Shown here piece by piece: positions 1 through 45,717 of a stretch of 64,000 nucleotides of DNA. The notes under the pieces were generated by a model. That model did no database searches and was not told where the DNA came from. It saw nothing but the letters and a program-made list of their open reading frames with translations. A program made the translations under genes and the position numbers. Position 1 is the first letter of the stretch; each line of letters begins with the position of its first letter. The stretch spans positions 1,240,001 to 1,304,000 of the forward strand of contig CAUYUJ010000114.1 in assembly GCA_963575745.1 (NCBI GenBank). The letters run 5' to 3'. Source of the stretch: Prorocentrum cordatum (Eukaryota).

Positions 1-175
1 GGGTTCGAACCGGTAGTGACCCCCCCCCCTTTTCATGATGAGCTGGGGGGGGGGGGGGGGGAGGGGTTCGAACCGGTAGTGACCCCCCCCGGTTTTCCGG
101 AGGGGGGGGGGAGGGGTTCGAACCGGTAGTGACCCCCCCCGGTTTTCCGCCAGCAGCGGTAGAACACGCTCTTTC
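1..175 (-). mobile_element. End of a TIR DNA element (same family as 30186-31333), truncated by the window edge
   Basis: Near-exact reverse complement of 30186-30370. Carries three GGTTCGAACCGGTAGTGACCCCC subterminal repeats and ends ...GCAGCGGTAGAACACGCTCTTTC at 175, followed by (CAT)n. Confidence 0.8.
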
Positions 176-12780: not shown

Positions 12781-13430
12781 AAAAGCGACCACACGCGGGA
12801 AGCTCCAAATAACCCCAGAATTCTATCATACATTCCGGGAAGGCTGAGAAGGGCGATGGGCAGACCTTGTGCAAGAAGAACGTGCTTGGAGGAAACACGT
12901 GAGTGCGCTACAGTAGCGCCTGCCGATGCGCCCCCGGGCGTTTGGCCCTCTGCTCTGCTCTCTGCTGAGGCTGGAGGTCAGAAGGGACTTGAGGACATTC
13001 CAATTCGCGCCTCAAGGCGCGATAAGCGGGGGCCCAGGCCAGGGGCCCCCGCCTCTACAACGGTGGAGTGGCACAGGCTTCCCTGCCAGCGTGCCGTGTC
13101 CTCCCGGCCAGCGTTCCGGGTCCCCACAGAGACACCAGGAAGCCCCAAGCGGGCACAGAAAGCGACAGGAGGCCCAAGAGAGCCTCAGGACATTTCAGAA
13201 GCCTCCACAGCGGCTCAGGATGGTCCTACGCGGCAGCAGGCCCGCCCCCAGAAAGGGCTTATGGAGCTCGACGAGGGCCCCTCAGAGGCTCCCGAGACCT
13301 CCCAAACCATTGATGTTCTTTAGGCTTTGGTATGATTTAGTGTAGTTGACGCTTCGCGTATCCCCACCAGCACAGCCTGCCCCTGCTTGTCCGGCGTTCG
13401 ACCCGCTTCGCGCGCCCGCGTACCAAAAAT

Positions 13431-13621
13431 CTGGACGCCCGACATGGGTACGGAAAAAATGGGTACAATGCCCAACAGCAGGTCCTGTTCATTTTGAACA
13501 GGACTCGCTGTCCGCGCCGCCGCGGCCTGTGTCCATTCGAGACAGAAGGCCGCCTGCCAAACAGCGAATTTTGTTGTTGGGCAGTGTACCCATTCTTTCG
13601 GTACCCATTTCGGGCGTCCAA
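13431..13621. mobile_element. MITE with ~49-bp TIRs and AAAAT flanking repeat; second copy inside JMJD6 intron 4 (~16690-16900)
   Basis: TGGACGCCCGACATGGGTACGGAAAAAATGGGTACAATGCCCAACAGCA matches the reverse complement of 13572-13620. AAAAT at 13426-13430 and 13622-13626. Confidence 0.8.
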
Positions 13622-14607
13622 AAAATGTACCCCCACCAGCCCATCTAGCAGCGATGCGTCGGCGAGTTGCGTTCATCAGGGAAGTACGGGGGCGCGCAGT
13701 GAAGCAAAGAGGCGGATGCAGCCGTCAAACAGAATATCGGGATCTGCTTGAACAGGCTCAGGAGTCAACCATGAATGCCTTCACGGATCTGTCGACACGG
13801 GAGCTTATTGGCAGCTTCCCTGCGCCATCTTGGGACCACGTCGGGGCAATTTTGCGACCATTGGTGCCGTTCGGGGCTCTCTTGGGTCTCTGTTGGGGGC
13901 CACAGGGGGCCACTTGGGGCCATCTTGGAGGACACCGATCAAATAAGTCGGGTCCTCGATCCGCCCATCCTGAGGCCCGAAGGTCGCGTTCTGGGGTCAT
14001 CTTGCAGCCCTCTTGGGCCTCTCTTAGGGGCCTCCTGGGCCATCGTAGGCCATCTTAAATCGGATGTGGATCGACCTCCTGCCCTGACACGTCGGTTAGT
14101 GAATTGGCCGTTTTCGGTTCGCGAGAGGGCGTCGCGGCCGTTATTTTTGTGGGTCTAGGTCCGTCGGTTTCGGTCCTAGGCCGTTTTCACTAAAGGGAGG
14201 TTTACTAAAGGGAGGCTTGTCCACCGCCAATTAAGGTCTCGGCACCCATCGGGCGCGAGAAGACACGGATGGCCTCTTGGGGGCCTGGAGGCGAGCGGGC
14301 GAAACGCCACCGCGGCGGAAGATGATTGGGCCCGCGCCCCTGGCAGGCGGAGGAGCCGCGGGAACGCGACAGGGAGCATGGCCGGGGCACCAAACGGATA
14401 GGCTGCGCTGCCAAGGACGCACCGGATTCGTAGTTGCTCCGCCCTGCTCGACCGACGCTGCTTGCCAGTTGCTACAATTTGAACGCCCGAGGGCCCTGCA
14501 TCCTTCTCTTGCAGCCTCGTGACGGGCCCCGACTGCACTGACGGGGACTGCCTCAGGGCACGGGCTCGAGCTCGTGGCGAGCCGGCTGGCGCCCGCGGCT
14601 CGATGGC

Positions 14608-17600
14608 ATGGACCCGGGCGGCGCTGCGCCACTTGCCCATGCCCCGGGCGGGCGGCCGAGCGGCTTCCGGCACAGGCGCACGGCGAAGGAGGTGTGGCGC
14701 TGCAAGAGGGCACACCGGACCGACTTGGCTCCCAACGCGTGGGGCCGGTACGGCTACGCGCACCGCCCGAGCCCCGCGCTGGCCCCCGAGCTGCCGCTGG
14801 GCGGCTCGCCCGCCAGCCTGCCGCTGCCTCGGGTGCGCTGGGGCGAGGTGGCCGCCGCGGAGTTCTTCGAGCGCTTCGCGCTGCCTGGCCGGCCGTGCAT
14901 AATCGAGGGGGCCGTGGACGGGTGGCCCGCAATGCACCGCTGGGATATCGTCAGGGCCCCCTCAGCGGGGACATTGGATGAGCCAGGGCACCTGCGCGCC
15001 CCAGCAGACTTCGGCCGTGGGTCGGAACTTTCGCCACTCCTCGGCCCCTCCAGCCGGGATTCTCAGAAAGCCCTGGTCAGCAATGTCCTGGCCCAGGGGG
15101 CCCGGTATCGATTCTCTGCTCGCGCGGTGCGGCCAGGCAGAGTTCAAGGTCGGCGAGGACGACAAGGGGCGGAGGCTGCGGATGAAGCTCAAGTACTTCG
15201 TCGACTACATGCGCCACCAGCAGGACGACAGCCCCCTGTACCTCTTCGAGGGGGGGGTGGAGAGCGAGCCCGTGGCCCGCCAGCTGCTGGAGGACTTCGC
15301 CGTGCCAGAGGCCTTCCCGCACGACCTGTTCGACCTCGTCAACTCCAAGGCGAAGCCACCGCACAGGTGGTGGAGCATAGGCCCCCGACGATCCGGCACG
15401 TCCGTGCACATCGACCCGCTGGGCACCAGCGCCTGGAACGCGGTCACGCACGGGCAGAAGCGTTGGGTGCTGTTCGAGCCGTCGGTTCCCAAGAGGCTCG
15501 CCAGGGGTGCCGACCTGATCGACAAGGGGAGGGAGGACGACGAGGCCGTCATGTACTTCGACTTTATCTGGCCGCGCTGCCCGGCGGATCCGCCACCTCG
15601 CTTGCCTGGGGGGGGCGGGGGGCGCATCGGGGAGAGGGCGCGCCATGGAACTCACCATCCACAGCGTTGATGTGGATGCCAACTTTGCGTGGAAGGCAGA
15701 AGAAGAACGAGCAGAAAAAAAAAAGAAAATGAGAAGAATACGAATAATAATAAGAAGAAGAAGAAGAAGAAGAAGAAACATAATAAGAATAAGAAGAAAA
15801 AGACAAATAATAATAATGATATCGGTCATACAGATTTCGGCGCGCCGGGCAGAACTTGCGCGGCATCTGCTTTCGTTTTTGGTGACAAGCACAAGCTCGC
15901 CATGGGAGGCACATTCCTCGAGACTCGGACCGACTCTTTTTCCGCGTAGCGCGTAGAATGGTTGAGCGGTTTGCGCATGCATGATGTGAACGCAATCTGA
16001 AGCGTTTGGCTAGTCCAGGTAGGATTCAGGCCGCCGTGCGAAACGAGACGAAAGAGGAAGAGCAATAATAATCAGAAGTAGAAGTAACATGTAGGCAGCA
16101 CGTGGAGTTGGCCGAAAGAACACGCGCCTTTGGCTCGAGGCGTGCCCTGCGCACTGCGTCTCAATGAGCAGATCTCACTAAAATAACAAGGACACCGCAC
16201 GCCAACAGTCGCAGAAGCGGTGGCGGATTCTGCCGCGGATCAAGCGCATGCACCCTGACGTTCGGGTCTACGAGGCCGTGCAGAACCCGGGCGAGGTCAT
16301 ATTCGTGCCCAGCGAGTGGTGGCACGGTGCTCTGAACATGGAGGCAGAGCTCATTTCGGTTCTTCCGGCTCGATTTGATTCGATGTTGATCGATTCCGAT
16401 TCGGATCCACTTTGATTTTGGATTCTGATGCGGATTCCGGTTTCTGAATTGAAACCCACGCGAGCCTACTGACTCCCGCCGATTCGGCTTCTCCCGACTT
16501 GGCTGCCGCTCTCCGCCGATCCGGTTCATTTCGATCGCCGATCCGACTCGTCGATTGAGTTCTGGGCCCTCCTGCCCGCAGGACACCGTGGCCGTGACGC
16601 AGAACTATTGCGGCTACGACAACTTCGACCTCGTCTGGGCGCGCACCCGGCGCGACCGAGAGAAGCTGGCCTTCCTGTGGCTGCGGAACTCGGCACGAAC
16701 GAGACGGGTACGGAAAGAAGGGGTACGCTGCCCAGCAGCAGCTCCTGCTCACTCTGAACAGGACTCGCTGTCCGCGCCGCCGCGGCCTGTGTCCACTTGA
16801 GACAGCAGGCCGCCTGCCCAACAGCGGCCGCTGTTGGTTTGGGACAACATTTGCTGTTGGGCATTGTACCCATCCTTTCCGTACCCATTTCGGACGTCCA
16901 AATCCTCCTCCCCCTCCCTCCCCCTCCTCCCCTCCTCCCTCCTCCTCCTCCTCCTCCTCCTCCTCCTCCTCCTCCTCCCTCCTCCTCCCTCCTCCTCCTC
17001 CTCCTCCTCCTCCTCCTCCTCCTCCTCCTCCTCCTCCTCCTCCTCCCCCTCCCCTCCCCCTCCCCCTCCCCCCTCCCCCTCCCCTCCTCCCCCTCCCCCT
17101 CCCCCCTCCCCCTCCCTGAGGAACATGCGCAGGTTCGCCCCCGCCCTGCACGCGCGGGCCCTCCAGCTGAACCGGCGGGACGGCGCCCTCATGCGCCACG
17201 AGCGTGCCGGCGGCGGGCGGCGCCGCGAGGCCGGCGCCGCCTCGTCCTCGGCTTAAGTCGGGCGCGTCTTTCTACAGGGGGAAGGTTCAAGAATAGTCAA
17301 GAAATACCCATCGGTCGTTGAAAGTAGGCATTTTTGGATTCCCAGATTCCAATCTACTTTCAGCGCCTTCCTACTTCAAGAGTCGAGTGGTTTTCCCTCT
17401 TCCTTCCTCTTCAGGAGGCGTGCGGAAACCCAATCTATTTCCAACGCCTTCCTACTTCATGTTTCTACCTATTTCTTCCGACCGATGGGTAGTCAAGAAC
17501 TAGTCTGGGCACTTTTTTTGACTGTTCTTGACCATCTTGGGGATACATTTTTGCGCGCATGTTCAGGCTTTCGTCCCAAAGTCCCCCCTGTAGGAGGACG

Positions 17601-17762
17601 GGCCCGACTTAATCCTCGTCCTCGTCCGCGGGCAGCTCCTCGAGCGACTCGTCCAGCGACGAGGAGTGCCACCTGGACCTGGCGCGGGTGCACGCGCGGC
17701 CCGGCGGCGCGGGGGTGGTGCCGCCGTGGCTGCGCCGCCCGGCGCCCCCCTGGCCGGCCAAG
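14608..17762 (+). CDS. JMJD6: JmjC-domain 2OG/Fe(II) oxygenase, JMJD6 type; exons ~14608-14950, 15111-15576, 16238-16343, 16582-16685, 17121-17250, 17619-17762 (possible further exon 19492-19647)
   Basis: Translation follows JMJD6 colinearly: EFFERFALPGRPCII..GWPAMHRW, FKVGEDDKG..MKLKYFVDYM..DDSPLYLF, GPRRSGTSVHIDPLGTSAWN (HxD), GQKRWVLF, QNPGEVIFVPSEWWHGALN (distal His), DTVAVTQNY..NFDLVW, and a C-terminal poly-Ser (SSSSDSSSDEE). Intron 3 is GC-AG (16344-16581) and intron 4 is GA-AG (16686-17120). Junctions 1, 2 and 5 are uncertain. Confidence 0.92.
14951..15105. mobile_element. MITE-like insert forming JMJD6 intron 1 (candidate Introner)
   Basis: TATCG direct repeat at 14946-14950 and 15106-15110; imperfect TIR 20/26 (14951-14976 vs 15081-15106). 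Confidence 0.75.
17251..17612. mobile_element. TIR element forming putative JMJD6 intron 5
   Basis: TIR 26/29 (17253-17281 vs 17584-17612); TCCTCG on both flanks (17245-17250, 17613-17618). Confidence 0.8.
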
Positions 17763-17776
17763 GTTGGCGCCAGAGG

Positions 17777-17944
17777 TCGGGTGTTGCTAGAAGGACCCCT
17801 GGCCCAAGGTGCCCCCAGGATTCTCAGGGCGGCCCAGGCGGCCTCCAGGGCACCACTCGCGAGGCCCAGAGGACCCCACGGGCTCCAAAATGGAACGAAA
17901 AGTTGGGGGCACCGTGGGCCCGGGGCACTTCTAGCAACACCCGA
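17777..17944. mobile_element. MITE, 41-bp TIR, 5-bp TSD AGAGG
   Basis: TIR 37/41 starting TCGGGTGTTGCTAGAAG; AGAGG at 17772-17776 and 17945-17949. Confidence 0.88.
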
Positions 17945-19059
17945 AGAGGGGAAGCAGAAACGGTGGGGGCGTTTGTTGAGGAATTTGCCCAGGAGGCTTC
18001 AGACCCTGGAGCCTTCCTCATCTCCCCCAGCGTCGAGCATGTACATATCCACGTACTCGCGGTCTGCATTCCGGGGCGCGATCCCGCGGAAACGTTGTCG
18101 CACGCATTTCGCCCACGACAAAGGAAACGATGGGGGCGTTCGTTGAGGAATGTGCCAGGAGGCTTCAGACCCTGGGGGATTCCTTAGCTGGTCAGGGTGG
18201 TGGTGATGTTCATGGCCACTCCACGATCAGTGTTCCACAGGTTTCCAGACCCTGGACTCCTTATCCGACGGCTGCTCGCCCTGGAGAGCAAGCGTTGCCA
18301 CGGCTAGATTATCCTCGGCGTTCTGGTCAGAGTGCACCCAGGGAGAGGTCCCGGGAGAACGGGTATCGGTACCTTCTTGTGTCTCTGCACGGAGGAACGC
18401 GCACGGTGGGTTGCGCAAGGGGGGGGGCGGGGGGGGGGGCCTTCTGAGGAGGCAGGGGGGCTTCTCAGGGGGGCCCTCCTGGCTTCCGGGAGGCCTTCTC
18501 TGAGGCACCAGGGCCGTCTCTAAGAAGCCACAGTGCCTTCCAAGAAGCCACCCCCTCCTGCCTTCTTAGAAGACCGTCCACCTCGCGGCAAACCCTTGCG
18601 CGCGCTGGGATCGAAGAAAAGCAAACGGCATGGTCAAATTGTTCTTGAGACCTCATTTTCTCCGTGACGCGTCTCGATCAAATCTCTTAATCAGTGGTGT
18701 TGGGCTTCCCCCAGTCCCTCGCCGTTGGTCCCTGCCTTGGTGCGGTGGGTGCCTTCAGACTTGTTTGCCGATCCCAGAAATTCGCGCGGGCCTCCGAGAG
18801 TTTCAAGTCGTGCCCCTCTTTCTGAACCTCGAGAGGAGCGGCTGCCGCCCTGGCCGAGGCCCCCAGCGGCAGCCCCTCAGGCAGGGCCCATCTCGACCCG
18901 ATCGATCCCATGCGATGTCGATTTCGGCCCTACTCCAGTCGGCTCCGATCCGAGCTCGAATCGACCCCATGCCGACGCGGGCTGACCGGATGCTGACAGA
19001 TCTACCGGTCCGATGCCGGCAGACCTTGCCAGACGCCTGCGCAAGCGCTGGACCTGCGG

Positions 19060-19112: not shown

Positions 19113-19681
19113 GGAAGGAGGAGAAGGAGGAGGAATAGGAGGAATAGGAGGATAGGAGGGGAGGAGGAGGGAGGAGGAGGAGGAGGAGAGGAGGAGGAGG
19201 AGAGGGAGGAGAGGAGGGAGGAGGAGGAGGAGAGTAGGAGGAGGAGGAGGAGGAGAGAGAGGAGGAGGAGGAGAGGACAGGAGGAGGAGTAAAAGGAGGA
19301 TGAGTACAAGTAGGAGGAGGAGGAGGAGGAGGAGGAGGAGGACAAGGAGGACAAGGAGGACAAGGAGGAAGAGGAGGACAAGAGGAGGAGAGGAGGAGGA
19401 GGAGAGGAGGAGGAGGAGGAGGAGGAGGAGGAGGAGGAGGGAGGAGGAGGAGGAGGAGAGGGAGGACAGATCCCGCCGGGTGCACGCGCAGGCGTTGGCC
19501 ACGGTGCCCGCCAGCCGGGGCCCGCCCGCCCTCGGCGCCGGGCAGCCGCCGCCCGCCCCCGCCGGGGAGAGGCGCCCGGCGGAGGGCGCCCGTGCCTGGG
19601 AGGCGTTCCGGGTGCCCCGCGGCGGGTGCGCGGCCCGGGCCGTCCAGGACTTATCCTGGGGGGAACTTGGGGAGGGGGGGA

Positions 19682-19712
<31 letters not shown>

Positions 19713-19817
19713 AGGAGGAGGAGGAGGAGGAGGAGGAGGAGGAGGAGGAGGAGGAGGAGGAGGAGGAGGAGGAGAGGAGGGAGGAGGAGGAGGAGGAGGG
19801 GAGGAGGGGGAGGGGGA

Positions 19818-19850
<33 letters not shown>

Positions 19851-20020
19851 GAGGAGGAGGAGGAGGAGGAGGAGGAGGAGGAGGAGATGGAGGAGGAGGA
19901 GATGGAGGAGAGAGGAAGGGAGGAAGAGGTGGGTGGGGAGGAGGAGGAGGAGGAGGAGGAGGAGGAGGAGGAGGAGGACGGGGAGGAGGAGGAGGAGGAG
20001 GAGGAGGAGAAGGAGGAGGA
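19060..20020. repeat. (GCA)n and (GGA)n microsatellite field with a unique GC-rich island at 19465-19660
   Basis: Directly visible. Confidence 0.95.
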
Positions 20021-20259
20021 CCAGTGTAAACCCAAGACTCATCAATGATGTTGGGATATACCCTCCCTCTTCACAGGCCGCTAATTACAAGGATCGACGT
20101 CCACTGAGGGAAGTGCCCCGTTGGGAGACAATCGTTTTTCCCTACCTAGGCTCTGCCTAGAAGGGTTCTTACTCTCTGGGTTTAAAGGGGCCGGGCAGTG
20201 GAAAGCGCCCCGGGCGGTTCCCCCAGTATCCGCCCCGCGGTTCCCCCAGTTGCGCCCCC

Positions 20260-21425
20260 TTAGCCTAGCTTTGCTTATCTCATCTTAGCTTAGCCTAGCT
20301 TAACTTTAGCTTCGCTTAGCCTAGCCTAGCCTGGCTTGGCTTAGCTTAGCCTAGCCTAGCCTAGCTTAGCTTAGCTTAGCTCAGCTTAGCCCAGCTTAGC
20401 TTAGCGCAGCGCAGCATTAGCAGAGCATGTCATAGCATGGCATAACATATCATAGCATATACTAGCATAGCATAGCATAGCGCATCATATCATAGCGCAT
20501 CATAGCATAGCATAGCATGGCATAGCGCAGCATAGCGTATCATACCATAGCCTAGCACAGCATAGCATAGCGCAGCATAGCATAACATCTCATAACATAG
20601 CGCAGCATAGCATAGCATAACATAGCATAGCGCAGCATAGCAAAGCATTGCCTAGCATAGCATAGCATGGCATAGCGCGGCATAGCGCAGCATAGCGCAG
20701 CATAGCATAGCATAGCATAGCATAGCATAGCATAGCATAGCGCGGCATAGCATAGCGTAGCATAGCAGCAAAGCAAAGGCAAAGCAACAGCAGCAACAGC
20801 AACAGCAAAGCACAAGCAACGCAAAGCCGGACCTGCAGTGCTGAACAGCCTGCAGCTCTTGCAGGAGCCGCGAGCAGTGCTGAACAGCTTGCAGCTCTTG
20901 CAAGCAGTGCTGAACAGCCTGCAGCTCTTGCAGGAGCCGCGAGCAGTGCTGAACAGCCTGCAGCTCTTGCAGGAGCCGCGAGCAGTGTTGAACCTAGTGC
21001 AAGCAGTGCTGAACAGCCTGCAGCACTCGCAGGAGCCACGAGCAGTGCTGAACAGCCTGCTGTCGCTGGGTGCACAGCAAAGCAAGACAAAGCAAAGCGC
21101 ATCATAGCATAGCATAGCTTAGCTCAGCATAGCACAGCGCAGCAAAGCATAGCATAGCATAGCATAGCATGGCACAGCTTAGCTTGGCTTAGCTTAGCGT
21201 AGCTTAGCTTAGCTTAGCTGTAGATGTGGATGTGGATGTAGATGTAGATGTAGGTGTAGCTGTAGCTGTAGATGTGGAATGCTCGTGTTGATGTTGATGT
21301 TGATGTAGATGTAGGTGCTGGTGTAGCTGTAGATGTAGGTGTAGGTGTAGCCGTAGATGCTGATGTAGATGTAGATGCAGGTGTAGATGTTAATGTAGCT
21401 GTTGATGTAGATGTAGATGTTGCTT
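20260..21425. repeat. Compound satellite: (CTTAG)n, (CATAG)n, a 39-bp GCAGTGCTGAACAGCCTGCAGCTCTTGCAGGAGCCGCGA minisatellite (20835-21060) and (GATGTA)n
   Basis: Directly visible tandem units. Confidence 0.92.
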
Positions 21426-28644: not shown

Positions 28645-29548
28645 TCTGCGTGGTGTGTGTATGTGTGAATTTGTGTGTGTGTGTGCGTGCGTGCGAGCGT
28701 GCGTGTGTGTGTGTGTGTGTGCGTGCGTGCGTACGTGCGTGCGTGCGGTGCGTGCGTGCGTGCGTGCGTGCGTGTGCGTGTGCGTGTGCGTGTGCGTCTG
28801 CGTGTGCGTGTGCGTGAGCGTGTGCGCGTGCGCGTGTGCGTGCGCGTGCGCGTGCGCGTGCGCGTGCGCGTGCGCGTGCGCGTGCGCGTGCGCGTGCGCG
28901 TGTGCGTGTGCGTGTGCGTGTGCGTTGCGTGTGCGCGTGCGCGTGCGCGTGCGCGTGCGGCGTGCGCGTGCGCGTGCGCGTGCGCGTGCGCGTGCGCGTG
29001 CGCGTGCGCGTGCGCGTGCGCGTGCGCGTGCGCGTGCGCGTGCGCGTGCGCGTGCCCGTGCGCGTGCGCGTGTGCGTGTGCGTGTGCGCGTGCTTGTGCG
29101 CGTGTGTGCGTGTCGCGTGCGCGTGCGCGTGCGCGTGTGCGTGCGCGTGCGCGTGCGCGTGCGCGTGCGCGTGCGCGTGTGCGTGTGCTGTGTGCGTGTG
29201 CGGGTGCGCGTGTGTGCGTGTGCGTGTGCGTGTGCGTGTGCGTGTGGCGTGTGCGTGTGCGTGTGCGTGTGCGTGTGCGTGTGCGTGTGCGCGTGCGCGT
29301 GTGCGTGTGCGTGTGCGTGTGCGCGTGCGTGTGCGTGTGCGTGTGCCGTGTGCGTGTGCGTGCGCGTGTTGTGTGCGCGTGGTGTGCGCGTGTGTGTGCG
29401 TGTGTGTGTGTGTGGTGTGTGTGTGTCTGTGTCTGTGTCTGTCTGTGTCTGTGTCTGTGTCTGTGTCTGTGTCTGTGTCTGTGTCTGTGTCTGTGTCTGT
29501 GTCTGTGTCTGTGTCTGTGTCTGTGTGTGGTGTGTGTGTGCGTGTGTG

Positions 29549-29588
<40 letters not shown>

Positions 29589-30148
29589 TGTGCGCGTGTG
29601 TGTGTGTGTGTGTTTGTGCGCGTGCGTGTGTGTGTATGTTTGTGTGTATGTTTGTGTGTTTGTGCTCGCGCTGGACCTGCTGCCTCCCCCCTTGGGCGCG
29701 TGCCCGGCAGCCTCCTGGTTGCCTCTCCCCACCCAGCTGCTGCTCTGCCGCCGCTGCTGGCCCCCGGCCCCGGCGCCCGCCCCGCCGCCGCCTGGCCCTG
29801 CTCTGAGCGGGCCCGGCTTCCATCTCCTTGCCGCCCGCACTGGGCGTCCTTCTCTCTTCCCCGTGCACCGCGGCTTGATTGGCGGTTTACACATGAATGC
29901 TAGATCGCCAGAGCAGTCCTTCTCCCTAGCCGCCGACGCGAAACAAATAGTGTTTGCGTTTGTGCGTTTGTGTGCACGTGTGTATGTACGTATGCATGTA
30001 TGTGTGCATGTGTGTATGTGTGTATGTATGTACGTATGCATGTATGCGTGCATGTGTGTATGTGTGTACGTATGTATGTATGTATGTATGTATATACGTA
30101 TGTATGTATGTACGTGTATGTATGTGTAAATGCATGTATCTATGTATG

Positions 30149-30185: not shown

Positions 30186-31333
30186 GAAAGAGCGTGTTCT
30201 ACCGCTGCTGGCGGAAAACCGGGGGGGTCACTACAGGTTCGAACCCCTCCCCCCCCCCCTCCGGAAAACCGGGGGGGGTCACTACCGGTTCGAGCTCCTC
30301 CCCCCCCCCCCCCCAGCTCATCATGAAAAGGGGGGGGGGTCACTACCGGTTCGAACCCCTCCCCCCCCCCCCTCTCGAAAACCCAGTGGGGGTGCGGACA
30401 GAGGTGGGGACGGTGTTGGTGGGACAGTGGTGAGGGGACAGCGGGACAGTGGTGGGGACAGTGGGACAGTGGGACAGTAGAGGGCCGGTAGTGGTGGGGA
30501 CAGTGGTGAGGACAATGGTGGGAACAGGGGGGACAGTGGACAGTGGTGGGGACGGTGGTGGTGGTGACAGTGGTGTGGGCACAGTGGGAATGAGGTGGAA
30601 ACAATGGGACAGTGGAGGGTACAATGGTGGTGGGGACAGTGGTGAAGGCGGTGGCGAGGACGGCGGTGGGACAATGGGACAGAGGTACAGTGGGGACAGT
30701 GGTGGGGACAGTGGGGACAGTGGTGGGAACAGTGGGACAGCTCAGTGGGACAGCGGCGGAGTCGGTGGGACAGTGGGGACAGTGGGGATAGTCGGGCAGT
30801 GGTTGGGGCCGTGGAGACAGTGGGGAGAGTGGAACCGTGGTGGGAACAGTGGTGGGGACAGTGGGGACAGTGCGACAGTGGTGGGGGCACTGGTGGGGAC
30901 ACAGTGGGGACAGTGGTGGTGAGGACAGTGGTGCTGGGAACAACAGTGGAGGATGTGATGCGGACGGTGGTAGGGACCGGGAGTCGTTTGCTGGCGGTGA
31001 GTGGGGGGGTAGGGAGGGGTTCGAACCGGTAGTGATCCCCCTCCGGTTTTCGAGGGGGGTGGGGGGGTTCGAACCGGTAGTGACCCCCCCCGGTTTTCCG
31101 GATCCGGAGGGGGGGTGGGGGGGGGTTTCGAACCGGTAGTAACCCCCCCTGGTTTTCGAGGGGGAGGGGGGGGGGGGAGGGTTAAGGAGGGGGGGGTTTG
31201 CCGGGAGGAGGGGGGGGGGGTCCAGCAGGGGGAGGGGGGGGGGGATTTTCGGAGGGGGGGGGGGCGACCCCGGGTTCCGGAGGAAAAGGTTGGCAATTTT
31301 CCACAGTAAAGCGGCGGTGGATCACGCTCTCTC
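30186..31333 (+). mobile_element. Complete non-autonomous TIR element with 8-bp TSD AAATATGT
   Basis: TIR 20/24 (GAAAGAGCGTGTTCTACCGCTGCT vs reverse complement of AGCGGCGGTGGATCACGCTCTCTC). TSD at 30178-30185 and 31334-31341. Three subterminal repeats per end in inverted orientation; internal GGGGACAGT minisatellite. Confidence 0.88.
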
Positions 31334-31969: not shown

Positions 31970-32670
31970 TGTGGTGGTGGTGGAGGTTGTGGTGGTAGGT
32001 TGTGGTGGTGGTTTGTGGTGGTTTTGTGGCGGTGGTGGTGGTGGTGGTGGTGGCGGTAGTTGTGTGGTGGTTCGTGGTGATGGTGGTGTGGTGGTTTGTG
32101 GTGGTGCTGGTGGGCTGTGGTGGTGCTGGCGGGTTGTGGTGGTGGTGGTTGTGGTGGGTTGTTGCGGTGATGGTGGTGGTGGTGGTGTGTTGTTGTGGTA
32201 GTGGTGGTGGTTGTGGTGGTGGTGGTTGTGCGGTGGTCTGTGGTGATGGTTGTGTCAGGTTGTGGTGGTGGTTATGGAGGTGGTAGTGGAGGTGGCGGTG
32301 GTGGCTGTGGTGGTGGCGGTGGTGGCGTGATGGGTTGCCGTGGTGGTGTTTGTGCTGGTGGTGGTGGTAATGGTGGCGGTGGCGTTGTGGTTTGCGGTGG
32401 TTTGTGGTGGTGGTGGTTGTTGTGGTGGGTTGTGGTGGATTGCGGTGGTGGTGGTGGTGGCGGTGGTAGGTTTTGGTAGACTTCGACGACGTCGACGTCG
32501 ATCTGGTAGGTAGGTCGTGGTGGTGGTGGTGGCGGTGGTGGTTGCGGCGGCGGTGGTGGTGGTTTGTGGTGGTTTGTGGTGGTGGTGCTGGACTGGCGAT
32601 GGTGCTGGTAGTGCTGGTGGGTGGTGGGTGGTGTTGGTGGTGGTGGCGGTGGTGGTTGTGAATTGGTGGC
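31970..32670. repeat. (GGT)n degenerate microsatellite
   Basis: Directly visible. Confidence 0.95.
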
Positions 32671-44620: not shown

Positions 44621-45583
44621 CTACGCGGGCCACGCGGGCGCCGCGGTGGCGTTTGCGCTCCACCTCCACAGGCGCTCCTGCGCCTCCACGCCGCAGTGGG
44701 GCGCCACGGACTCGTGCAGCGTGCCGAACGTCGGGCGCATCAGCCGCACTGGCCACCACCACGCATACTTCGGCAGATACCGGCTCACTGGCGAGGAGAA
44801 CAGCAGCCGCGGGAACGCGTAGGGGTAGAGGAACTCCGGCGCAACCGTCTCAGAGACAAACGCGCTCTCGAACACCAGCCTTCCGCTTGTCTGGGGATCA
44901 CCGCACCAATCCAGCCATTTCCTGCCCCTGCACCAATCCAGCTCGGGACCTAGCAGTGCCGTGGCGACCCGGCCGGGGGCCATCGCCACCGCCCTCAGCG
45001 CTGGTCGCCGGCGTCGCAGCGCCTTCACGAAGCACAGCTCGGCCAACTTGCTGTTGGCGTATGCCATGGGGCGGGGCTGGCCGTACACCCACTTATCATA
45101 CCTGGGGCGCGTCTTCGGGGTGAGCTGGTGGAGCTTGCCCTGCCACATCGCGGCGCTCCCTACCGCCACCAGCGAGGCATTTGGGGCGAGCAGCTCCAGC
45201 AGAAGCCTCACGAGCAGGAAGTGCCCGAGAAAATTGGTAGCATAGGCTAGGTCGTGGCCGCTGTTGGCGGTGGTGTTCGTCGGCCACGTGGGCCCGTAAC
45301 CCATGCCCGCGTTGAGCACCACCACATCCAGTCTCCGGAAGAGCTTCTTCGCTTCCCCCGCGAAGCGCCTGACGTCGTCGAAATCCGACGTGTCCAAGAC
45401 CATCGGTGTGACCGCTTCATGCTGTCGCCCCGCCATGTCCGCGAGTTCGCGGGCGGCCCTGGACGCCTTCGGCCACTTCCGGCTGGTCACGGCGACGCGC
45501 GACCCCCTGCGGCAGAACTCCGCGGCCGCGTGGAACCCGATGCCCTGGGAGGCCCCCGTGACGAGCGCGGCCTGGCCATCCAT
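44621..45583 (-). CDS. Short-chain dehydrogenase/reductase, retinol dehydrogenase/WWOX-like subgroup
   Basis: Uninterrupted ORF with TGASQGIG (TGxxxGxG), LDVVVLNAG, ATNFLGHFLL, AYANSK (YxxxK), APGRVAT and C-terminal QERLWRWS. First ATG is at 45583; the frame stays open upstream to a possible AG|G acceptor near 45666. Confidence 0.93.
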   Translation of the reverse strand: MDGQAALVTGASQGIGFHAAAEFCRRGSRVAVTSRKWPKASRAARELADMAGRQHEAVTPMVLDTSDFDDVRRFAGEAKKLFRRLDVVVLNAGMGYGPTWPTNTTANSGHDLAYATNFLGHFLLVRLLLELLAPNASLVAVGSAAMWQGKLHQLTPKTRPRYDKWVYGQPRPMAYANSKLAELCFVKALRRRRPALRAVAMAPGRVATALLGPELDWCRGRKWLDWCGDPQTSGRLVFESAFVSETVAPEFLYPYAFPRLLFSSPVSRYLPKYAWWWPVRLMRPTFGTLHESVAPHCGVEAQERLWRWSANATAAPAWPA

Positions 45584-45717
45584 CGAGGCTGGAGCGTCCA
45601 CGCCGCGCCCCTGCTCGGGGGGCGCCAACAGTAGGCACCCACGCAGATTCGCTGTCAGACCACGCCTGGGCCCAGGCTCGGTGTGCGTATGTGTGAATCT
45701 TTAGTTATGTACACATA

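What the first reader, a model, noticed from the sequence alone, without database searches (positions are those of the whole stretch)
14944..17624. JMJD6 gene interrupted by three TIR/TSD inserts whose precise removal needs a non-AG acceptor: candidate non-canonical Introner-type introns
Seen: interruptions 1, 2 and 5 are each bounded by a short direct repeat ending in CG (TATCG, GCCGCG, TCCTCG) and have inverted repeats at their ends (20/26; ATCCGCCACC/GGTGGCGGAT; 26/29). Deleting the insert plus one repeat copy restores HRWDIDSLLARC, YFDFIWPRIKRM and ASSS-SSSAGSSSSDSSSDEE, colinear with JMJD6. No register of these deletions ends in AG, although each can start with GT or GC. The exons keep HxD/K/H and have no other disablement, and introns 3 and 4 of the same gene are ordinary GC-AG and GA-AG. 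Established: Introner transposons create introns in dinoflagellates, and repeat-bounded non-canonical introns are known in Amoebophrya and euglenids. Inference: a structure-guided or relaxed-acceptor splicing route may operate alongside standard splicing in a core dinoflagellate.
Basis: partly seen in the sequence, partly recalled or inferred. Interest (0 to 1): 0.85.

Follow-up and report, generated by a model that had tools for sequence, protein, structure and literature searches.

The report
Non-AG hairpin introns, dinoflagellate JmjC gene
Three transposon-like hairpin inserts that break a dinoflagellate JmjC enzyme gene are missing, to the exact base, from its messenger RNA although they lack the usual intron end signals, which points to a second way of removing introns in these algae.

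Summary
A 480-aa JmjC/JMJD6-like gene (14608-18985, + strand, 7 exons) has six interruptions. RNA-derived contigs from four studies each carry one transcript that matches the exons with 0-2 differences and skips all of them. Introns 3, 4 and 6 are ordinary GC-AG, GA-AG and GT-AG. Inserts 1 (14946-15105), 2 (15566-16226) and 5 (17245-17612) are removed with no G[TCA]..AG register at all. That restores the conserved FDFILPRIK, not FDFIWPRIK. Only the three non-canonical inserts show significant pairing between their two ends (z -6.3, -2.7, -6.2, against -0.8, +1.0, -0.7).

Best reading (about 0.77): these are transposon-derived, non-canonical introns of the kind described in Amoebophrya, removed from RNA by a route that ignores GY-AG and is probably guided by end pairing. 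The enzyme is unknown.

Main rival (about 0.12): the mRNA comes from an insert-free DNA copy. I had no DNA reads or genome to exclude this.

In the library I could search, dinoflagellate introners outside Amoebophrya are all described as GH..AG.

The parts
14608..14945 (+). Exon 1 (ATG at 14608); ends ...HRWD(I)
   Evidence: RNA contigs cover 14555/14575..14945 with 0 other letters; Cupin_8 hit; translation
14946..15105 (+). Insert/intron 1, 160 nt, non-canonical. Registers +0..+5: TA..GG, AT..GT, TC..TA, CG..AT, GT..TC, TC..CG. 5-nt direct repeat TATCG at 14946-14950 and 15106-15110. Inverted arms 14954-14976/15081-15103. The whole element is a hairpin.
   Evidence: Joint 14945>15106 in 4 of 4 runs, both=5; registers; IR; fold z -4.13; end-pairing z -6.3, 0 of 300 shuffles
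15106..15565 (+). Exon 2 (JmjC core, HID at 15407)
15566..16226 (+). Insert/intron 2, 661 nt, non-canonical. Registers +0..+2: AT..GG, TC..GA, CT..AT. Only 2 nt of junction repeat. Decayed 11-nt repeat ATCTGGCCGCG (15566) / ATTCTGCCGCG (16227), 8 of 11. Perfect 10-nt inverted repeat 15588-15597/16219-16228. The intron 5' part 15574-15597 pairs with 16219-16247, reaching into exon 3. AAG/AAT-rich low-complexity core 15698-15824.
   Evidence: Joint 15565>16227 in 4 of 4 runs, both=2; end-pairing z -2.7, 0 of 300; whole-intron fold not exceptional, z -0.85
16227..16343 (+). Exon 3 (ILPRIK..., second Fe-binding His in WWHG at 16317)
16344..16581 (+). Intron 3, 238 nt, canonical GC..AG|G
   Evidence: Joint 16341>16580 both=3 in 4 of 4 runs; register; end-pairing z -0.8
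16582..16685 (+). Exon 4
   Evidence: pieces
16686..17120 (+). Intron 4, 435 nt, canonical GA..AG|G, flanked by the 5-nt repeat GGAAC. It is a hairpin transposon-like element (about 16687-16902, arms 16695-16740/16852-16897) followed by a (TCC)n microsatellite at 16903-17115.
   Evidence: Pieces 16580-16685 and 17121-... contiguous in the contigs (table 8)
17121..17244 (+). Exon 5
17245..17612 (+). Insert/intron 5, 368 nt, non-canonical. Registers +0..+6: TC..AA, CC..AT, CT..TC, TC..CC, CG..CT, GG..TC, GC..CG. 6-nt repeat TCCTCG at 17245 and 17613 (again at 17619). Inverted arms 17250-17281/17584-17615. Nested second inverted pair 17287-17304/17514-17531.
   Evidence: Joint 17244>17613 both=6 in X1 and X6; X5 shows 17247>17619 (371 nt); X16 contig ends at 17220; fold z -9.25; end-pairing z -6.2, 0 of 300
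17613..17762 (+). Exon 6 (poly-Ser, SDSSSDEE tail region)
17763..18835 (+). Intron 6, 1073 nt, canonical GT..AG|G; holds a nested inverted pair 17777-17817/17904-17944
   Evidence: X5 and X6 contigs run on after 17763 with 30 letters that occur once in the window, at 18837-18866; registers; repeats
18836..18985 (+). Exon 7 coding part; stop TGA at 18983-18985; conserved ...RPHA C-terminal motif

Best explanation
The locus is an expressed, intact JmjC/JMJD6-like gene of a GC-rich dinoflagellate that is not Amoebophrya-like. Three of its six interruptions are old insertions of non-autonomous inverted-repeat elements. Two are still clean terminal-repeat-plus-target-duplication elements; one has decayed. 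They behave as introns without spliceosomal end signals: each is removed from the RNA so that one copy of the flanking repeat remains and the conserved reading frame is restored.

Shown:
- The RNA junctions and the absence of any G[TCA]..AG register.
- Canonical GC-AG, GA-AG and GT-AG introns in the same transcript.
- Significant pairing between the two ends in only the three non-canonical inserts.

Inferred:
- Removal happens on RNA made from this very locus.
- The hairpin that brings the two ends together is what marks the segment for excision.

In the common register, the 3' cut lies exactly at the outer end of the 3' repeat arm (15105, 16228, 17612) and the 5' cut lies upstream of the 5' copy of the target repeat. 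This is the layout of known dinoflagellate introners, but without their GH and AG.

On the enzyme I lean about 55:45 towards a cut-and-ligate route independent of the spliceosome, as suspected for euglenid nonconventional introns. The alternative is a spliceosome that tolerates any terminal dinucleotide when the ends are paired, as proposed for Amoebophrya.
For: -: one contig per run (4 runs, 4 studies; one on record as polyA RNA, the others hold about 0.40 of the words, which is the exon share) matches the exons with 0-2 other letters. These contigs join 14945>15106 and 15565>16227 in 4 of 4 runs. 17244>17613 is joined in 2 of the 3 contigs that reach it.
-, table 2: depth is 0 in all four runs in bins wholly inside insert 2 (15648-15801, 15956-16109), while contigs join across it. 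So the inserts are not in the steady-state mRNA.
- 0 of 16 possible registers is G[TCA]..AG.
- the joined protein aligns without a gap at any junction to 14 homologues. F(I/L)LPRI(K/L) is conserved in 14 of 14.
- end-to-end duplex z is -6.3, -2.7 and -6.2 (0 of 300 shuffles each) for the three non-canonical inserts, against -0.8, +1.0 and -0.7 for the three canonical introns.
- 35 and 21 in-frame canonical alternatives lie near inserts 1 and 2 and are unused.
- the 5- and 6-nt junction repeats are rare by chance (P 0.012 and 0.0056).
- Against a recent insertion in a dead copy: X1 shows 0 differences in 1,314 exon nt. Yet the arms are only 83-88% matched and the repeat of insert 2 has decayed to 8 of 11. 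The three inserts are also unrelated to one another.
- Literature: Amoebophrya introner elements have the same anatomy (inverted repeats of 8-20 nt, direct repeats of 3-5 nt over the boundaries, no end consensus; PMC7789003, passages).
Against: - No DNA reads and no genome were available. An insert-free copy with identical exons is therefore not excluded directly.
- All RNA evidence is assembled contigs, which drop rare forms and cannot show precursors, lariats or circles.
- Only three non-canonical and three canonical introns were compared, so the link with end pairing rests on n=3 against 3.
- Insert 2 as a whole folds no better than shuffles (z -0.85), and its junction repeat (2 nt) is no more than chance.
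- I found no single cut geometry relative to the helix that fits all three. The distance of the 5' cut from the stem is 6-8, 8 and 20 nt.
- X5 shows a 371-nt rather than a 368-nt skip at insert 5. This may be imprecision or a strain difference in the Ser repeat.
- No other copies of the three inserts lie in the window, so a transposon family is inferred from anatomy only.
Confidence: 0.77

Rival explanations
1. DNA-level absence. The assembled copy is a silent or dead copy (paralogue, allele or strain variant) hit by three transposon insertions. The mRNA comes from a sister copy that lacks them and keeps only introns 3, 4 and 6.
For: - Removing 'insert plus one repeat copy' is exactly what an empty target site looks like for inserts 1 and 5 (both=5 and 6).
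- No DNA run was among the holders and no genome was held.
- A diverged paralogue is transcribed (loose ends at 15217 and 15564), so the family is multi-copy.
- Dinoflagellate genomes are rich in duplicates and active introners (PMC10666404 passages; preprint 10.1101/2020.10.14.339549).
Against: - The exons are identical to the X1 transcript at 1,314 of 1,314 nt. The sister copy would therefore be extremely young.
- Yet three unrelated elements with imperfect arms (83-88%) sit in 1.4 kb of coding sequence.
- Insert 2 has no clean target duplication (2 nt; an 11-mer decayed to 8 of 11), so it is not a fresh insertion.
[quoted passage not shown] This step is my inference.
- Four studies with two organism labels plus marine metatranscriptomes give the same junctions.
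Confidence: 0.12
2. Laboratory or assembly artefact. Reverse transcriptase jumps between the direct repeats across the hairpins (template switching), or the contig or genome assembler created the junctions or the inserts.
For: Short direct repeats at non-canonical junctions next to strong hairpins are the recalled signature of template switching (recalled, not read here). All the evidence is assembled contigs.
Against: - If the inserts were in the mRNA, random-primed reads from inside them would assemble at exon depth. Bins inside insert 2 have depth 0 in 4 of 4 runs while contigs join across it.
- The junction of insert 2 has only 2 nt of repeat, and its ends are 661 nt apart with a modest stem.
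- The same junctions appear in four studies.
- Retained inserts would shift the frame (160, 661 and 368 nt), yet the downstream exons keep the frame, the catalytic residues and colinearity with homologues.
- Elements with terminal repeats and target duplications are not a pattern that assemblers invent.
Confidence: 0.03
3. Ordinary spliceosomal splicing at nearby canonical sites. These are the reader's own refuters: 14950-15070, an acceptor at 16217, 17244-17635.
For: 35 (insert 1) and 21 (insert 2) in-frame G[TCA]..AG pairs exist within the ranges searched.
Against: None is used. All four contigs carry the exact non-canonical junctions. No in-frame canonical pair exists for insert 5 in the range searched (0). 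The alternatives would add or remove conserved residues.
Confidence: 0.01
4. Programmed DNA excision. The elements would be cut precisely out of the DNA in some gene copies or cells (ciliate IES-like), and only the excised copies give mRNA.
For: The outcome (element plus one repeat copy gone) is the same as precise transposon or IES excision. There are no DNA data to test it.
Against: No nuclear dualism or DNA elimination is known in dinoflagellates (general knowledge). Insert 2 lacks clean ends. The closest parallel (Amoebophrya) is an RNA phenomenon defined on RNA-seq against the genome (PMC7789003).
Confidence: 0.02

Closest known systems
Amoebophrya introner elements / non-canonical introns (Farhat et al. 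2021, PMC7789003; passages read)
   Same: RNA-supported introns without any end-dinucleotide consensus. Inverted repeats of 8-20 nt near both ends can form a hairpin that joins the exon borders. Short direct repeats overlap the boundaries. No transposase inside. They coexist with canonical introns.
   Different: Amoebophrya is a parasitic, early-branching syndinian in which more than 60% of introns are non-canonical and U1 snRNA was not found. Here the host groups with core dinoflagellates and away from Amoebophrya. The same gene holds GC-AG, GA-AG and GT-AG introns with the AG|G signature. Repeated families and snRNA content could not be tested. The direct repeats are 5 and 6 nt (2 nt for insert 2).
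Introner-like elements of Symbiodinium and Polarella glacialis (Roy et al., preprint 10.1101/2020.10.14.339549; parts 1-2 read)
   Same: Same architecture: a DNA-transposon-like element with inverted repeats ending at the 3' junction, flanked by a target duplication whose upstream copy lies at the 5' junction. Intron 4 of this gene (GA..AG, 5-nt repeat GGAAC, second element copy at 13427-13622) fits this class.
   Different: All classes described there make GH..AG introns, with splice sites taken from the element or the duplication. Inserts 1, 2 and 5 have neither GH..AG nor any register that gives it.
Introner elements counted in Prorocentrum cordatum and other free-living dinoflagellates (Dougan et al. 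2023, PMC10666404; passages and supplement passages)
   Same: Introns with inverted repeats of 8-20 nt and direct repeats of 3-5 nt within 30 nt of the ends, reported in 2.4% of P. cordatum introns. That genome is GC-rich (59.7%), like this window.
   Different: Those were searched only inside annotated introns, and the mapping and gene-finding tools were set to GT/GC/GA donors with AG acceptors. Non-AG cases could not be seen. Whether this window is from that species is not known.
Nonconventional introns of euglenids (as summarised in the review PMC11282704; passages)
   Same: Non-canonical borders, pairing near the ends that brings them together, repeats like target duplications at the junctions, suspected MITE origin, coexistence with conventional introns. 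Excision is suspected to be non-spliceosomal, with circular products.
   Different: The characteristic +4..+6 / -8..-6 CAG/CTG pairing is not present here (read from the sequence of insert 1). Circles and order of removal are not testable here. The lineage is unrelated.
Non-canonical MITE-derived introns of the tunicate Fritillaria borealis (as summarised in PMC11282704; passages)
   Same: Transposon-derived introns with non-canonical ends that are removed efficiently; there, by an evolved U2 spliceosome.
   Different: The Fritillaria introns have their own preferred end motifs. Here no motif is shared by the three inserts.

Membership tests
Amoebophrya-type introner elements (non-canonical introns with IR+DR) | Absent from RNA, present in the genome sequence (RNA-supported junction) | tested here: met
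   Joints in contigs of 4 of 4 runs for inserts 1 and 2, and in 3 of the 3 contigs that reach insert 5
Amoebophrya-type introner elements (non-canonical introns with IR+DR) | Boundaries not GT-AG (nor the dinoflagellate GC/GA-AG), with no common dinucleotide | tested here: met
   0 of 16 registers is G[TCA]..AG
Amoebophrya-type introner elements (non-canonical introns with IR+DR) | Inverted repeat of 8-20 nt or more near both intron ends, able to form a hairpin | tested here: met
   23-nt, 10-nt and 32-nt arms; end-pairing z -6.3, -2.7, -6.2
Amoebophrya-type introner elements (non-canonical introns with IR+DR) | Direct repeat of 3-5 nt overlapping the exon/intron boundaries | tested here: inconclusive
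   Insert 1: 5 nt. Insert 5: 6 nt. Insert 2: only 2 nt at the RNA junction
Amoebophrya-type introner elements (non-canonical introns with IR+DR) | Repeated in the genome (families of similar introns) | not testable with these tools
   No genome held. 0 other copies in the 64-kb window. Short RNA contigs that match part of insert 5 (for example 17439-17493) hint at relatives elsewhere.
Canonical dinoflagellate introners (Roy et al.) | Element with inverted repeats plus a target-site duplication | tested here: met
   Inserts 1 and 5 are clean; insert 2 is decayed
Canonical dinoflagellate introners (Roy et al.) | Creates a GH..AG intron, with splice sites supplied by the element or the duplication | tested here: not met
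   No such register for inserts 1, 2 and 5. Met only by intron 4.
Canonical dinoflagellate introners (Roy et al.) | Many near-identical intron-forming copies | not testable with these tools
Euglenid nonconventional introns | Pairing of +4..+6 with -8..-6 (CAG/CTG type) at fixed distance from the ends | tested here: not met
   Read from the sequence. Insert 1 in register 0 has CGU at +4..+6 and GGG at -8..-6. The stems start at variable distances.
Euglenid nonconventional introns | Excised as full-length circles, after the conventional introns | not testable with these tools
   Contigs cannot show products or order
U12-type (AT-AC) minor introns | AT..AC or GT..AG ends with a conserved 5' site and branch site | tested here: not met
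   The AT-start registers end in GT (insert 1) or GG (insert 2). The 5' consensus is recalled, not tested with a model.
tRNA-type bulge-helix-bulge introns (endonuclease plus ligase) | Two cuts placed symmetrically around a 4-bp helix formed by the intron start and the 3' exon start | tested here: not met
   In insert 1 the only 4-bp helix of that topology (14947-14950 with 15109-15112) would give a 162-nt, not a 160-nt, excision. No such helix exists in insert 5. The motif definition is recalled.
JmjC / JMJD6-like hydroxylase (the host gene) | JmjC/Cupin_8 fold with the HxD...H iron-binding residues | tested here: met
   Pfam hits on exons 1-3; HID and WWHG; 995 homologues at E<=1e-10, some named JMJD6 by their sources

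The most novel reading that the evidence does not exclude
A core dinoflagellate has, beside its GY-AG spliceosome, a second RNA-excision pathway that does not read splice motifs at all. Any segment whose ends are clamped by an inverted-repeat hairpin would be cut at the base of the stem and the exons ligated (an endonuclease-plus-ligase route, as suspected in euglenids). A hairpin transposon landing in an exon would then become an 'instant intron' whatever its target site. That would make non-canonical introners an ancestral dinoflagellate trait rather than an Amoebophrya oddity. It would also mean that current dinoflagellate gene annotations, built with GT/GC/GA-AG-only tools, systematically miss or break such genes.
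Probability: 0.35. Interest if true: 0.9.

Novelty: new member of a known kind. Interest (0 to 1): 0.72.

Why it matters
If removal is on RNA, three consequences follow.

1. The hairpin-bounded, motif-free introns known from the parasite Amoebophrya also exist in a free-living-type, GC-rich dinoflagellate, next to normal GC/GA/GT-AG introns in one gene. The trait is then wider and probably older than thought.

2. It gives a small, concrete substrate set for asking which machine removes such introns: three non-canonical and three canonical introns in one 4.4-kb transcript unit. That question is open for Amoebophrya and for euglenids.

3. Dinoflagellate gene models are built with aligners and predictors restricted to G[TCA]..AG (PMC10666404). 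Genes like this one would be mis-modelled, and the true share of transposon-made introns underestimated.

It also bears on how new introns arise. Elements that carry no splice sites could still be neutralised at once.

Tried and rejected
- Whole genome of the window: not held, so no genome-wide survey, no copy counts and no search for an insert-free copy.
- DNA runs: none of the 24 listed runs holds more than 0.42 of the words, so no DNA control could be laid. Only 4 of the 24 runs were laid (X1, X6, X5, X16).
- JGI metagenome scans found nothing. I tried a 30-nt exon-2 end and an IUPAC pattern of the insert-5 repeat arm: 0 loci each.
- The listing of cluster members, to name the closest transcriptome proteins: the query was not sent because the database is switched off.
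- Earlier findings of the scan: nothing for this genome, this sequence or these words. The hits for 'dinoflagellate intron' concern other things.
- Rfam: 3 weak hits, all far below gathering score. Phage BLAST of insert 5: no match.
- Other copies of inserts 1, 2 and 5 in the window: none. Only the element in intron 4 has a second copy.
- Bulge-helix-bulge geometry: off by 2 nt for insert 1 and absent in insert 5. Blunt or 2-nt-staggered cuts across the stem: no register fits all three.
- Pairing between the exon flanks (a palindromic target site): not exceptional. The fraction of control windows pairing at least as well was 0.26-0.95.
- Further non-canonical introns in other genes of the window: a GC3-based scan gave only one other clear gene, a single-exon short-chain dehydrogenase. 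No second test case.
- My first reading of intron 6 as GG-AG or GT-GG was an indexing slip. It is GT-AG.
- A single-gene tree places the protein with dinoflagellates other than Amoebophrya, but in a clade of unnamed transcriptome proteins only. It does not name the species.


Full report
**What is there.** The stretch 14608-18985 (+ strand) encodes a 480-aa JmjC/JMJD6-like protein in seven exons.
- Exon translations hit Pfam JmjC and Cupin_8.
- Exon 2 alone finds 995 homologues at E<=1e-10. The best are 75% identical and unnamed; named dinoflagellate proteins score 57-64%.
- In a single-gene tree the exon-2 protein falls inside a 100/99-supported group of 20 dinoflagellate rows that excludes Amoebophrya.
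- The window is 44-72% G+C in 2-kb steps and full of microsatellites.

**The observation.**
- Junction repeats of 5 and 6 nt are uncommon for random position pairs in this window: P(>=5)=0.012 and P(>=6)=0.0056 over 200,000 trials.
- Insert 1 is a near-complete 160-nt hairpin (fold z -4.13).
- Insert 5 is a 368-nt nested hairpin (z -9.25).
- Insert 2 as a whole folds no better than shuffles (z -0.85). Its 5' part (15574-15597) does pair with 16219-16247, which runs into exon 3.

**RNA evidence.**
- One search for public runs listed 24 runs. 15 hold 0.40-0.42 of the sampled words, which equals the exon share of the query, and none holds more.
- I laid four runs from four studies (X1, X6, X5, X16; X16 is on record as polyA RNA) on 13800-18400.
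- Each run has one contig that covers the gene from 14555-14777 onward with 0-2 other letters.
- The joints are:

| Joint | Skip | Junction repeat | Runs |
|---|---|---|---|
| 14945>15106 | 160 nt | 5 letters | 4 of 4 |
| 15565>16227 | 661 nt | 2 letters | 4 of 4 |
| 16341>16580 | 238 nt | 3 letters | 4 of 4 |
| 16685>17121 | 435 nt | 5 letters | from the pieces table |
| 17244>17613 | 368 nt | 6 letters | X1 and X6 |
| 17247>17619 | 371 nt | 2 letters | X5 |

- The X16 contig ends at 17220.
- The X5 and X6 contigs run on after 17763 with letters that occur once in the window, at 18837. This defines a sixth intron.
- Bins lying wholly inside insert 2 have depth 0 in all four runs, while contigs join across it.

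**Registers.** I listed every cut pair that gives the observed mRNA.
- Intron 3 is GC..AG|G, intron 4 is GA..AG|G and intron 6 is GT..AG|G.
- Insert 1 allows TA..GG, AT..GT, TC..TA, CG..AT, GT..TC and TC..CG.
- Insert 2 allows AT..GG, TC..GA and CT..AT.
- Insert 5 allows seven registers, from TC..AA to GC..CG.
- None of these 16 is G[TCA]..AG.
- In-frame canonical pairs lie nearby (35 for insert 1, 21 for insert 2, 0 for insert 5) and are not used in any of the four contigs.

- For insert 2 the RNA junction is 6 nt upstream of the GCCGCG repeat.
- The mRNA reads FDFILPRIK. An alignment of the joined protein with 14 homologues has no gap at any junction and shows F(I/L)LPRI(K/L) in all 14.
- A diverged paralogue's transcript reads LLPRIKQAHP at the same place (loose end at 15564 in 3 runs).
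- The upstream 11-mer ATCTGGCCGCG is therefore an intronic, decayed copy (8 of 11) of the exonic ATTCTGCCGCG.

**What separates the two kinds of interruption.**
- I paired 57 nt around the 5' junction with 69 nt around the 3' junction and compared the result with 300 dinucleotide shuffles.
- The three non-canonical inserts give z -6.3, -2.7 and -6.2 (0 of 300 shuffles as good).
- The three canonical introns give -0.8, +1.0 and -0.7 (65, 258 and 66 of 300).
- The pairing comes from the inserts themselves. The exon flanks do not pair unusually well.
- Intron 4 is also a hairpin element with a 5-nt flanking repeat and a second copy at 13427-13622. Its hairpin sits at the 5' end only, and it has a GA..AG register. 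It looks like an ordinary dinoflagellate introner.

**Reading.** The inserts are not in the mature mRNA, and the gene needs their exact removal to keep its frame and catalytic residues. The choice is therefore between removal from RNA and an insert-free DNA copy.
- I favour RNA-level removal, for these reasons:
  - The X1 transcript equals the exons at 1,314 of 1,314 nt, so any sister copy would be very young.
  - Three unrelated elements with imperfect arms (83-88%), one of them without a clean target duplication, sit in 1.4 kb of coding sequence.
[quoted passage not shown] This step is my inference.
- Reverse-transcriptase jumping is rejected by the zero depth inside the inserts and by the agreement of four studies.
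- Direct proof is missing: no DNA reads, no precursor reads, no excision products.

**Mechanism.**
- In one shared register the 3' cut lies at the outer end of the 3' repeat arm (after 15105, 16228 and 17612), and the 5' cut lies upstream of the 5' copy of the target repeat.
- I tested a tRNA-type bulge-helix-bulge geometry and simple blunt or staggered cuts on the predicted helices. None fits all three.
- I therefore commit only to excision linked to end pairing and independent of terminal dinucleotides. I lean slightly towards a non-spliceosomal cut-and-ligate route, because insert 2 has no G at either end position that the spliceosome normally requires (general knowledge).

**Comparison with what is known.**
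- Amoebophrya introner elements match in every feature I could test (PMC7789003, passages).
- The reviews I read list non-canonical, hairpin-bounded introns among dinoflagellates only for Amoebophrya (PMC11453091; PMC11282704).
- The introner study of Symbiodinium and Polarella describes only GH..AG classes.
- The P. cordatum genome paper counted inverted-repeat/direct-repeat introns in 2.4% of annotated introns, but with tools limited to GT/GC/GA-AG.
- Six full-text searches found no report of non-AG, hairpin-bounded introns in a core dinoflagellate. The final Current Biology version of the introner study and most subscription papers are not in that library.

**Verdict.** I file it as a new member of the Amoebophrya-type class of non-canonical introner-like introns, in a different dinoflagellate lineage. 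Family copy number and the enzyme remain untested.

Noticed in passing
window 16686-17120 and 13427-13622: Intron 4 (GA..AG) is a hairpin element (arms 16695-16740/16852-16897, 46 nt, 80%) plus a 213-nt (TCC)n array, flanked by the 5-nt repeat GGAAC. A second copy of the element (78% by BLAST; 85% mean column identity when aligned) lies upstream of the gene, outside any exon seen here.
   Followed up: partly
window 17247/17619 (run X5): One run removes 371 nt instead of 368 nt at insert 5, giving five instead of six Ser codons. This is either imprecise excision or a strain difference in the TCC/TCG repeat. Unexplained.
   Followed up: no
window 15217-15564: Transcripts of a paralogue match this part of exon 2 at 95% or more and then diverge on both sides (loose ends at 15217 and 15564 in 3-4 runs). 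The paralogue's contig depth is about 1-3 times that of this gene. Possibly a gene-conversion tract.
   Followed up: no
window 14073-14228: Short contigs at high depth (up to 653 in X1), with variant joints (14098>14179 with 8 replaced letters), cover a repeat just upstream of the gene. It looks like an abundantly transcribed dispersed repeat.
   Followed up: no
window 17763-18835: Intron 6 (GT..AG) holds a nested inverted pair (17777-17817/17904-17944, 41 nt, 90%) and a direct pair (17957-18018/18124-18184, 89%), i.e. further small elements inside a canonical intron.
   Followed up: partly
window 44630-45590, minus strand: A single-exon open frame for a short-chain dehydrogenase/reductase-like protein (TGASQGIG..., YANSK motif), with no interruption. 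I read it from translation only and did not search it.
   Followed up: partly
window 52-149, 30212-30310, 31003-31177: A 48-59-nt palindromic unit built around GGTTCGAACC, flanked by G and C runs, recurs at three places and on both strands.
   Followed up: no
window 19116-20020, 20259-20767, 28653-29664, 31971-32660: Long simple-repeat arrays lie downstream of the gene: (AGG/GGA)n of about 350 nt twice, pentamer arrays CTTAG/TAGCA, about 1 kb of GT/GC-rich hexamers, and (GTG)n of 690 nt.
   Followed up: no
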